Of a DNA stretch of 29,044 nt, positions 4,858 to 7,605 are shown piece by piece (the first letter of the stretch is position 1; every line of letters begins with the position of its first letter). Under the pieces are notes generated by a model. The model searched no databases and was not told the DNA's origin. It worked only from the letters and a program-made list of their open reading frames with translations. The stretch spans positions 124,001 through 153,044 of the forward strand of contig JALJEE010001690.1 of assembly GCA_023231475.1 (NCBI GenBank). Reading direction: 5' to 3'. Source of the DNA: Seison nebaliae. Its lineage: Eukaryota. Position numbers and translations under genes: made by a program.

Positions 4858-7605
4858 ATGATGAATAACAATATGACGTCAGCGCAAACTTCCACCGACA
4901 ACAACATTTCCGGTGATGGTGGTTCAACACGTAGAAGAGATGATAACACCAATAGTCATGGTAACAGTTCATCATCACCAACAACAACCACATCAGCCTC
5001 CTCTCCTCATTCAGGGCGATTCACGAATGTTCACGGTGATGCACCAAATCAACAACCATCAGATCTGGAGAATAATAGACAAATAATTAACGAGACAAAT
5101 GAATATGATGCGAATTGTAATCAAAGTAATTCGAAAAGGAAGGACGATATCATACAACCATTGCCAACGAAAGATCGTATGTTAAAAGGTTTCTCTTCTT
5201 TCATTCTCCAAATGAAAATATGGAAATTTATCATCATCATTTTCAGCTGTACCCTTTCCGCCCACACATCGTCTAACCGATAAAGAAGTATTCGACGCAC
5301 AAGGAAAACCACGTGTCGAAGTATTAAAACAACATTTTATTTTGGAGGGTCGACTCACTGAAGCTGTTGCCAATCGGATAGTTCAAGAAGGTGCCCAACT
5401 CCTCAAGAATGAGAAGACAATGATAGAAGTTGAAGCACCAATTACTGGTTATTTCACAATTATTTCCTTACAATTTATTCAATTTCTAATTCAAATTAGT
5501 TTGTGGTGATATTCATGGACAATTTTATGATTTGATGAAACTGTTTGAAGTTGGTGGACCACCTTCACAGACACGATATCTATTTCTCGGTGACTATGTT
5601 GATCGTGGATATTTCAGTATTGAAGTTATTAATATTCTTCACCATATCCTTTTATTCTTTTTATTCAAATTTCAGTGTGTAATATATTTGTGGTCAATGA
5701 AAATACTTTATCCATCAACATTCTTTCTTTTACGCGGCAATCACGAATGTCGTCATTTGACGGAATATTTCACATTTAAACAAGAGTGTTTATTTTCTAA
5801 TTCTTCTTCTTCTTTTTATTCAAATTCATGATATATATCAACAGGTCTCATAAAATATTCTCAACAACTCTATGATACTTGTATGAACGCATTTGACTGT
5901 CTTCCGTTAGCTGCTTTAATGAACGGACAGTTTCTTTGTGTTCACGGTGGAATATCACCCGAAATCAATTCACTCGAAGATATCAGAAGAGTTCTTCCAT
6001 TCTATCATTCAGTTATTTTATCTCAATTCTCTAGTTGGACAGGTTCAAAGAGCCTCCGCCAATGGGTCCCATGTGTGACTTGTTATGGTCAGATCCGTTG
6101 GAGGAATATGGTAATGAGAAGAATCATGAATTCTTTTCACAAAATTCTGTTCGCGGATGTTCATACTTCTACAGGTTTATATATATATATACATCTCTCC
6201 TCCTTCATTCTAACTCTAATTCTAACTATTTCAATTTGACAGTTATCAGGCTTGTTGTGACTTCCTCGCTAGGAACGGTCTCTTATCGATTATTCGTGCA
6301 CATGAAGCACAGGATGCTGGGTTCATTTGAAAATTCATCATTCATTTTTCATTCTCTTCTCCAAATCATTCATTGTATATTAGTTATCGAATGTATCGGA
6401 AAAGTCAAGCAACAGGATTTCCTTCTTTGATAACTATCTTCTCAGCACCAAATTATTTAGATGTCTACAATAACAAAGGTTCTTAATTATTCTCTATTCA
6501 ATTCAAATTTGTTTTAGCGGCTATTTTGAAATATGAAAATAATGTGATGAATATTCGTCAATTCAATTGTTCACCTCATCCATATTGGCTACCGAATTTC
6601 ATGGACGTTTTCACTTGGTCACTGCCATTCGTAGGTGAAAAAGGTTTGAATTCTTATTAGAATTATATTTTTTTCATATTTGTTTAAATAATAATAATCT
6701 GATAATATTTTGAAATAGTTACGGAGATTTTGGTGAAGATTTTGAGTATTTGTTCGGATGAAACGATTGAAGAGACGTCTGAAGAACGTTAGTCGATTTC
6801 TTCTTATTATTAATGACAGAGAATTTGATCAATCGAAAGTTGATTTTGATGAGAACTTAATAACATTTTTCATTTTCTTTTCTATCCATTAAAAATGAAA
6901 GAAGCACCTCAAATAAGTAAATGTTCTATTCGTTTATTTTCATTTCGCACTTGATTGGGAAGGAAATTTTTATCAATTTATTAAATGATTTTAATGAAAT
7001 GAAATCAATATTTTTCTAATGTCCACTTCAGCTGATTCTTCTTTATCCATCAACTGCTTCCCAACACAAACAGTCGAATAATAACGAAAGTTGATTTTAC
7101 TAAAACTGAATTAATCGAAATTCAATCGCTCCTCATTTTGCACATTTATAACAACAAAATAACATCATCAAAGATAATTGCTTATCTCACTACAATTTTT
7201 GATATGTTTTCAAATATTAACCTTTTTTCTCCTTTTCAGCCGGATTGGGTGCACGTCGTGATGTTATCAAAAATAAAATTCGAGCAGTCGGTAAAATGGC
7301 TCATGTATTCAAAGTATTACGGTTAGTTTCCATCATATTCATAAATTATTTTAAAAAATTTGAATTTTAGTGAGGAAAGTGAAAGTGTACTCCAATTGAA
7401 AGGACTCACTCCAACAGGAAATTTACCAATCGGTACACTTTCCGGTGGACGATCATCAATCAATCAAGGTTCCTTTATTCAAATCATTCTTTAGATTTAT
7501 TTATGTTCCATTCCAATAGCATTGAGTGGAATAGGTTCCTTTGAGGAGGCGAGAAAGTTGGATAAGGCCAACGAAAAAATGCCTCCAAGGAAAGATGCAA
7601 AATGA
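4858..7605 (+). CDS. PPP3C: Calcineurin A (serine/threonine phosphatase 2B catalytic subunit), about 562 aa, 13 exons: 4858-5188, 5247-5447, 5500-5624, 5676-5787, 5845-5990, 6035-6174, 6243-6320, 6384-6478, 6518-6643, 6719-6787, 7240-7321, 7371-7468, 7520-7605
   Basis: Spliced translation has the PPP motifs GDIHGQ, GDYVDRG, RGNHE and SAPNYL, the CnB-binding region [24 protein letters not shown], the CaM-binding helix [23 protein letters not shown] and the autoinhibitory [17 protein letters not shown]. All 12 introns are GT-AG and preserve frame. Confidence 0.98.

What the first reader, a model, noticed from the sequence alone, without database searches (positions are those of the whole stretch)
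5247..7468. GTT donors lie in apparently ancestral introns, not newly inserted ones
Seen: internal calcineurin exons measure 201, 125, 112, 146, 140, 78, 95 and 126 nt, plus a later 98-nt exon, with junctions such as SIE|C, DIRR|L and within KA, YFYS, DAG, NNKA, GEKV. From memory these match vertebrate PPP3CA exon sizes and junctions. Inference: old introns shrank to about 40-75 nt and each had +3 converted to T in place. This argues for selection by a changed spliceosome rather than an introner burst. The introns share no obvious sequence similarity, which also argues against introners.
Basis: partly seen in the sequence, partly recalled or inferred. Interest (0 to 1): 0.7.

Follow-up and report, generated by a model that had tools for sequence, protein, structure and literature searches.

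The report
Ancient animal introns retuned to GTT
In the tiny marine wheel-animal relative Seison nebaliae, the calcineurin introns sit at the same old positions as in other animals and fungi, yet all begin with GTT instead of the usual GTA/GTG, which likely means its splicing machinery changed how it reads intron starts and the old introns were rewritten in place.

Summary
Observation confirmed. The window is Seison nebaliae DNA. Its calcineurin A gene has 12 of 12 homology-fixed introns starting GTT; 25 of 26 homology-anchored and 32 of 34 modelled donors in the window have T at +3, against about 45-49% T in intron interiors. Positions are ancestral: other animals' isoforms and read-through ORFs break at the same codons, fungal-type genomic loci share four positions and phases, an unnamed eukaryotic contig shares four more junctions, a paper confirms human introns 11/12. 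Those orthologous introns start mostly GTA/GTG (1 of 27 GTT). No introner family or end duplication. So the bases changed in place. That a changed spliceosome drove it is inferred: no RNA, no U1/U6, no other rotifer could be examined. Closest known: Entamoeba GUUUGU with a co-evolved U1, but that lineage is intron-poor. The scan noted GTT donors before in protists (Bonamia, foraminifera), none in an animal. WDR19 ancestry is untested. New variant of a known kind; interest 0.6.

The parts
4858..7607 (+). Calcineurin A (PPP3C orthologue) gene of Seison nebaliae, 13 coding exons (14 in the NCBI model)
   Evidence: Pfam Metallophos
4967..5014 (+). Extra 48-nt in-frame GTT..CAG intron in the NCBI model only; not homology-anchored
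5189..5246 (+). Intron 1, 58 nt, phase 1, GTT; position shared with other animals
   Evidence: read-through ORFs diverge just before VPFPP
5448..5499 (+). Intron 2, 52 nt, phase 1, GTT; shared position
   Evidence: 29 of 119 homologues diverge here after a Gly
5625..5675 (+). Intron 3, 51 nt, phase 0, GTT; shared with animals and fungal-type loci
   Evidence: 10 loci
5788..5844 (+). Intron 4, 57 nt, phase 1, GTT; shared with animals and fungal-type loci
   Evidence: (2 loci)
5991..6034 (+). Intron 5, 44 nt, phase 0, GTT; shared with animals and fungal-type loci
   Evidence: (13 loci)
6175..6242 (+). Intron 6, 68 nt, phase 2, GTT; shared with vertebrates
   Evidence: 26-aa exon-skip isoforms in 4 vertebrate proteins
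6321..6383 (+). Intron 7, 63 nt, phase 2, GTT; shared with vertebrates and fungal-type loci
   Evidence: (2 loci)
6479..6517 (+). Intron 8, 39 nt, phase 1, GTT; shared
   Evidence: 42-aa exon skips in 3 vertebrate proteins; locus L098
6644..6718 (+). Intron 9, 75 nt, phase 1, GTT; shared
   Evidence: 126-nt exon in L098, donor with A at +3
6788..7239 (+). Intron 10, 452 nt, phase 1, GTT; in a variable linker, position shared approximately
   Evidence: insertions at residue 458 in vertebrates and molluscs; L098
7322..7370 (+). Intron 11, 49 nt, phase 2, GTT; shared
   Evidence: L098; human exon 12 starts at REESE (PMC11662586)
7469..7519 (+). Intron 12, 51 nt, phase 1, GTT; same codon and phase as human PPP3CA intron 12
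   Evidence: c.1340-1 = IVS12 acceptor (PMC11662586); alignment
26229..28921 (+). WDR19/IFT144 5' part; 10 of 10 donors GTT with the single 80-nt exon 27617-27696, 9 of 11 in the NCBI model
17414..19207 (-). Carboxylesterase, 4 introns of 46-49 nt: 3 GTT, 1 with G at +3 (donor at 18561)
8178..10027 (-). Orphan gene SNEBB_006873, 7 modelled introns: 6 GTT, 1 with A at +3 (donor at 9298); no homology anchor

Best explanation
The calcineurin introns of Seison nebaliae stand at positions shared with other animals and in four cases with fungal-type genes, and they carry T at donor position +3 where orthologous introns carry A or G, likely because the donor-reading step of this lineage's major spliceosome came to prefer U at +3 and selection then fixed the T intron by intron. 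Shown: ancestral positions, T at +3 far above composition, no repeat family. Inferred: the preference lies in the machinery; the single most likely molecular cause (about 45%) is a U1 snRNA with A facing +3, as in Entamoeba; recognition would then rest on the exon end (A, A, G at -3 to -1 in 20, 18, 19 of 34), GT, U+3 and a weak G+5/U+6 in the normal register.
For: 12 of 12 calcineurin and 25 of 26 homology-anchored donors have T at +3, p 2e-7. 25 of 37 ends of long alignment gaps in other animals' calcineurins fall within 1 residue of a Seison junction, 0.075 expected per end (related vertebrates, not independent). 27 of 30 candidate introns in 80 metagenome loci lie at four Seison positions with the same phase; their third base is A 18, G 7, C 1, T 1 (counted by eye). 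At intron 2, 23 read-through ORFs imply A 13, G 4, C 4, T 1, T/C 1. L098 shares introns 8, 9, 11 and roughly 10, with donors A, A, C at +3. All-vs-all intron score equals shuffles (mean 15.9 vs 15.9, 253 pairs); end duplications 0-4 nt. G stays at +5 (10 of 32) not +6 (1 of 32). Precedent: Entamoeba GUUUGU with U1 ACAAAC (Roy and Bowser preprint).
Against: No U1, U6 or splicing-factor sequence was seen; no RNA confirms the junctions. In Saccharomycotina and several other lineages donor changes (at +4) came without any snRNA change (PMC10581693 section 7), so the U1 step may be wrong. Positions +4 and +5 are weak here (A+4 13 of 34, G+5 11 of 34), which a single U1 substitution does not by itself explain. 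Two donors without T are in use or modelled. Four genes of one window are the whole sample, and model-only introns are partly circular. The read-through tally is biased against donors that create an early stop, which includes some GTT donors. No other rotifer or acanthocephalan donor was available, so the time and breadth of the change are unknown.
Confidence: 0.7

Rival explanations
1. Same in-place retuning, but the snRNAs are unchanged: the preference comes from proteins or from heavier reliance on U6/U5 (U at +3 can wobble-pair with the G of the unchanged U6 ACAGA box), as with the +4 switch in yeasts. This is a variant of the best explanation that differs in the molecular step.
For: +3 is far more fixed than +4/+5, suggesting a base-specific check rather than a longer helix; U1 and U6 were invariant across Saccharomycotina despite donor switches; Roy and Bowser note that GUUUGU increases pairing with standard U6.
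Against: The only studied lineage with U at +3 did change U1. No Seison factor was examined.
Confidence: 0.3
2. Relaxed donor recognition plus T-biased mutation: +3 drifted to T because introns are T-rich.
For: Intron interiors are 45-49% T; +4 to +9 look near background.
Against: T at +3 is 25 of 26 (p 2e-7); A, the ancestral base and 30-33% of intron letters, is nearly absent; GT elsewhere is followed by T in 35-48% of cases.
Confidence: 0.05
3. An introner burst supplied GTT-starting introns, either at new sites or replacing old introns at the same sites.
For: Uniform short lengths (median 51 nt); one pair shares 17 nt; another contig of the same runs matches the first 38 nt of intron 9 with 6 differences.
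Against: Positions and phases match distant animals and fungal-type genes; no end-to-end similarity, no end duplications. The shared stretches are partial, T-rich and do not reach both intron ends.
Confidence: 0.03
4. The GTT bias is a general, already familiar trait of rotifers/acanthocephalans and Seison is only an extreme case.
For: My recall that bdelloid and nematode introns fairly often start GTT (no call supports this).
Against: Five literature searches found no description.
Confidence: 0.3
5. Shifted-register donors: an extra T pushes the usual signal one base into the intron, as noted by this scan in foraminifera-like DNA.
For: Donors begin GTT.
Against: G at +5 in 10 of 32 GTT donors, at +6 in 1 of 32; T at +6 in 19 of 32.
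Confidence: 0.02

Closest known systems
Entamoeba transformed donors GUUUGU(U) with co-evolved U1 snRNA (Roy and Bowser, bioRxiv 10.1101/2022.06.08.495308; abstract, passages and section 23 read)
   Same: U at +3 in nearly all GT-AG introns, normal register, short AT-rich introns, old introns carry the changed signal.
   Different: Entamoeba is intron-poor with a rigid hexamer (88-90% GUUUGU); Seison is an animal that keeps 12 introns in calcineurin and fixes only +3 (T+4 12 of 34, G+5 11 of 34). U1 change shown there, untested here.
+4 A/U switch in Saccharomycotina linked to METTL16 and SNRNP27K (PMC10581693; abstract and section 7 read)
   Same: Lineage-wide change of one donor position at existing introns.
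   Different: Position +4, not +3; fungi; U1 and U6 shown invariant there.
Introners (Gozashti et al. 2022, PMC9860276; passages read)
   Same: Can give many introns one unusual donor.
   Different: Defined by end-to-end similar families at new positions, often with target-site duplications or terminal inverted repeats; none of this is seen here.
Vertebrate PPP3CA exon-intron structure (PMC11662586; passages read)
   Same: Intron 12 at the same codon and phase, exon 12 starting at REESE, same ordinal numbering.
   Different: Seison shows no counterpart of the 30-nt alternative exon 13 in its model; exons 10 and 11 lie in a linker of different length; donors are GTT.

Membership tests
Introner (transposon-derived intron family) | Sequence similarity between introns reaching both ends, families of four or more | tested here: not met
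   253 pairs of 23 short introns score as shuffles (15.9 vs 15.9); best pair shares only an internal 17-nt stretch. Window only.
Introner (transposon-derived intron family) | Lineage-specific new positions | tested here: not met
   11 of 12 calcineurin positions shared with other animals, the twelfth (intron 10) approximately; 4 with fungal-type loci.
Introner (transposon-derived intron family) | Target-site duplication or terminal inverted repeats (in many, not all families) | tested here: not met
   End duplications 0-4 nt in 24 introns; no inverted repeat pairs the two ends of an intron among those of 14 nt or more.
Introner (transposon-derived intron family) | Genome-wide copy families | not testable with these tools
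   No whole genome held.
Major (U2-type) GT-AG introns | GT start, AG end, no U12 donor consensus | tested here: met
   24 of 24 GT..AG, -3 is T/C in 22 of 24; none has the U12-type donor (consensus as in PMC3033335).
Major (U2-type) GT-AG introns | Purine at +3 pairing with standard U1 | tested here: not met
   32 of 34 have T.
Entamoeba-type transformed donor system | U at +3 in nearly all introns | tested here: met
   25 of 26 homology-anchored donors.
Entamoeba-type transformed donor system | Rigid U+4, G+5, U+6 | tested here: not met
   T+4 12, G+5 11, T+6 20 of 34.
Entamoeba-type transformed donor system | Intron-poor genome | tested here: not met
   12 introns in calcineurin, 10 in the first 570 codons of WDR19; several other ORFs of the window look intronless.
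Entamoeba-type transformed donor system | U1 snRNA with complementary change | not testable with these tools
   No snRNA in the window; no genome held.
Shifted-register (+1) donors | Conserved G moved from +5 to +6 | tested here: not met
   G+5 10 of 32, G+6 1 of 32.

The most novel reading that the evidence does not exclude
Seison nebaliae is an intron-rich animal whose major spliceosome has re-coded the 5' splice site to GUU through a co-evolved U1 snRNA, so that tens of thousands of ancestral introns were converted in place without mass intron loss; the first such case in Metazoa and a counterexample to the link between transformed donors and intron paucity.
Probability: 0.4. Interest if true: 0.8.

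Novelty: new variant of a known kind. Interest (0 to 1): 0.6.

Why it matters
Transformed donor signals are described mainly from intron-poor microbes, and it is an open question whether strict new signals arise after intron loss or force it (Roy and Bowser, section 23). An animal that kept its ancestral introns yet switched +3 from purine to T shows that a genome full of introns can follow a change in recognition base by base. Because the introns are orthologous to those of rotifers, molluscs and vertebrates, the order of events can be mapped on a tree with public genomes, and the responsible snRNA or protein change can be looked up directly. It also matters for annotation: the NCBI WDR19 model appears to use two wrong GTA donors where a GTT exon fits homologues better.

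Tried and rejected
No whole genome held. No RNA holder listed for the gene; the two RNA-labelled runs of another organism laid nothing: no evidence either way on splicing. A second lay on 5960-6830 to read donors of a low-depth divergent haplotype gave one 85-nt piece over exon 10 and its donor, too near the contig end to read. Rfam found no snRNA in the window. WDR19 positions: the paper search for human splice variants gave one irrelevant hit; gaps in 149 WDR19 representatives are too scattered to test junctions; no WDR19 match in G001. PMC3031160 and PMC2134773 are not held. The Seison genome paper passages mention intron span only, not donors; its supplements were not read and could bear on novelty. 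No bdelloid donor sequences found in PMC10597677 passages (figures not held). Viral-contig loci are distant phosphatases of 33-40% identity, not examined further. Three of 30 candidate introns (L031, L077, L078) were set aside as low-scoring with non-YAG ends; L078 looks like a small frameshift near position 239. Six NCBI/UniRef/nr gene models were dropped from the 29 read-through rows before the +3 tally because they may be exon skips. No clear branch-point or intronic motif stood out. No -1G/+5G compensation (Fisher p 1.0). A count of predicted pairings with standard versus changed U1 was not obtained, so that comparison is open.

Full report
1. What is there. The + strand from 4858 to 7607 encodes calcineurin A. 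Splicing by GT-AG gives an open 562-residue frame with exons of 331, 201, 125, 112, 146, 140, 78, 95, 126, 69, 82, 98 nt and a last exon. The exon-2 peptide is 100% identical to NCBI protein SNEBB_006872 of Seison nebaliae, which maps exactly onto the same 12 introns plus a 48-nt in-frame one in exon 1; two other window genes also match SNEBB proteins. S. nebaliae is a seisonid syndermatan with a compact genome of about 44-46 Mb and 32% GC (PMC8351084, passages). The protein aligns to mammalian PPP3CA without gaps over the catalytic part at an offset of 74 residues, so the junctions are fixed by homology, not by a gene finder. DNA contigs of two studies agree with the window here, apart from one base inside intron 6. 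No RNA run was listed.

2. The donor signal. All 12 introns start GTT. Adding WDR19 (10), a carboxylesterase (4) and model-only introns (8), 32 of 34 donors have T at +3; among the 26 anchored by homology 25 do. Intron interiors are 45% T (49% at positions 7-20), giving p about 2e-7; unused GT in the gene is followed by T in 34 of 98 cases. The other positions are weak: A+4 13, G+5 11, T+6 20, G-1 19 of 34. G sits at +5 (10 of 32 GTT donors), not +6 (1 of 32), so the register is normal. Exceptions are real: carboxylesterase intron 2 has G at +3 and is pinned by the sequence just before the esterase serine motif; one intron of the orphan model has A, with an in-frame GTT alternative 15 nt downstream. 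The two GTA donors in the NCBI WDR19 model are probably errors: a single 80-nt exon at 27617-27696 with a GTT donor scores 570.3 against 564.6 bits on a profile of 45 homologues and gives a motif spacing of 29 where most homologues have 30-33 and the NCBI model 41; the margin is modest.

3. Are the positions old? Four lines were tested. (a) Of 119 homologues listed, 87 read on as spliced at junction 2 and 29 diverge exactly there after a Gly, the residue a phase-1 GT intron gives when read through; others stop at junctions 3, 4, 5, 8 and 12 or start at junction 1. (b) 21 gaps of 20 or more residues in named animal proteins have 37 ends, 25 within one residue of a Seison junction (0.075 expected each), including skips of the 78-nt exon in four vertebrates and of the 126-nt exon in three; these rows are related and not independent. 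(c) In 80 metagenome loci, mostly transcripts or intron-free, 30 candidate introns were found; 27 lie at Seison positions 3, 4, 5 and 7 with the same phase (only in-frame gaps in residues 88-445 and breaks between hits were scanned). One such locus scores higher against PDB 6tz8, 6tz7, 5b8i than against human over the same 204 residues; that those entries are fungal is recalled. (d) L098, a eukaryotic contig filed in a bacterial genome bin, has a 126-nt exon 9 and junctions 8, 9, 11 at the same codons and phases, and junction 10 nearby; only these three exons were found. In print, human c.1340-1 is the acceptor of intron 12 and exon 12 begins at REESE (PMC11662586, passages); counting 33 residues from that Arg puts the human and Seison intron 12 in the same codon and phase. 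For WDR19, exons of 92, 66 and 126 nt match my recall of the human gene, but no call confirmed it.

4. What do orthologous donors look like? The 27 introns of (c) have A 18, G 7, C 1, T 1 at +3 (counted by eye); L098 has A, A, C; 23 read-through ORFs at intron 2 imply A 13, G 4, C 4, T 1, T/C 1 (six gene models dropped; biased against donors that make a stop). Against 12 of 12 the contrast is p below 1e-6 taken naively. The ancestral state is therefore purine, and the T was gained at existing introns.

5. Introners. 253 pairs of 23 short introns score the same as dinucleotide shuffles (15.9 vs 15.9). One pair, introns 3 and 4, shares an internal 17-nt T-rich run (1% of shuffles reach it), and another contig matches the first 38 nt of intron 9 with six differences; neither spans an intron end to end, which is the defining criterion (PMC9860276, passages). 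End duplications are 0-4 nt. With ancestral positions this excludes an introner burst for these introns.

6. Mechanism. Shown: old positions, T fixed at +3, not composition, not repeats. Inferred: something in donor recognition favours U+3. From established knowledge +3 faces U1 early and the U6 ACAGA box later. The one studied lineage with U+3, Entamoeba, changed U1 from ACUUAC to ACAAAC (preprint 10.1101/2022.06.08.495308), so I take a U1 with A facing +3 as the likeliest single cause (about 0.45). Against it, yeasts and other lineages changed +4 with invariant U1 and U6 (PMC10581693 section 7), and the weak +4/+5 here hints at a base-specific check by U6 or a protein (about 0.3). The window holds no snRNA and no genome was held, so this stays open. 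'Shrinkage' of the introns is plausible but unshown.

7. Novelty. Searches for Seison with intron (5 papers), Seison with spliceosom (none), bdelloid or Acanthocephala with splice site, rotifer with GTT/GUU and U1 and Adineta with donor/acceptor listed nothing describing this; I saw listings and abstracts for most, passages for PMC8351084, PMC10125929, PMC11347140, PMC10639083, PMC3033335, PMC10597677, PMC10158995. Subscription papers and supplements were not seen. This scan has noted GTT donors in Bonamia and shifted GTT classes in other protists, none in an animal. Whether other syndermatans share the trait is untested.

8. Verdict. The changed spliceosome is the best explanation (0.7) but unproven. 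It works like the Entamoeba system, is not a member of it on the tested features, and is new as an intron-rich animal case. Interest 0.6.

Noticed in passing
window 4967-5014 (+): The NCBI model removes a 48-nt, stop-free, in-frame GTT..CAG stretch from calcineurin exon 1 (Ser/Thr-rich if kept); it could be a young intron made from exon sequence, an optional one, or a model error.
   Followed up: no
window 27450-28085 (+): NCBI WDR19 model uses two small exons with GTA donors; one 80-nt exon (27617-27696) with a GTT donor fits homologues better.
   Followed up: partly
window 18514-18561 (-): Carboxylesterase intron 2 keeps a textbook purine donor among GTT neighbours; could be a younger or unconverted intron.
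   Followed up: partly
proteins P0004-P0007, P0020: Read-through ORFs that resemble P0040 (label cut at 'Brac', probably Brachionus) run unbroken across junctions 1 and 2 and break at junction 3, so these relatives seem to have lost introns that Seison kept.
   Followed up: no
   Followed up: partly
window 9951-10442, 17413-18269, 6721-6805: Low-depth contigs about 80-87% identical to the window lie under the main ones; a second lineage such as is described for this species, or paralogues; not tested.
   Followed up: partly
window 11620-13458 (-), 13635-14072 (-), 15607-16461 (+), 22003-24765 (+), 24740-25270 (-): Long apparently intronless ORFs beside the intron-rich genes: 612 aa and 920 aa without Pfam hit, a weak TFIIA-gamma hit, a LicD-family hit, a weak GCV_H hit.
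   Followed up: no
window about 16980-17045: Short high-copy repeat: contig depth 270-600 against 15-30 elsewhere.
   Followed up: no
window 6788-7239: The one long calcineurin intron (452 nt) holds a 14-nt exact repeat at 6834 and 7085 and two further YAG sites; other animals have optional exons at this linker.
   Followed up: no
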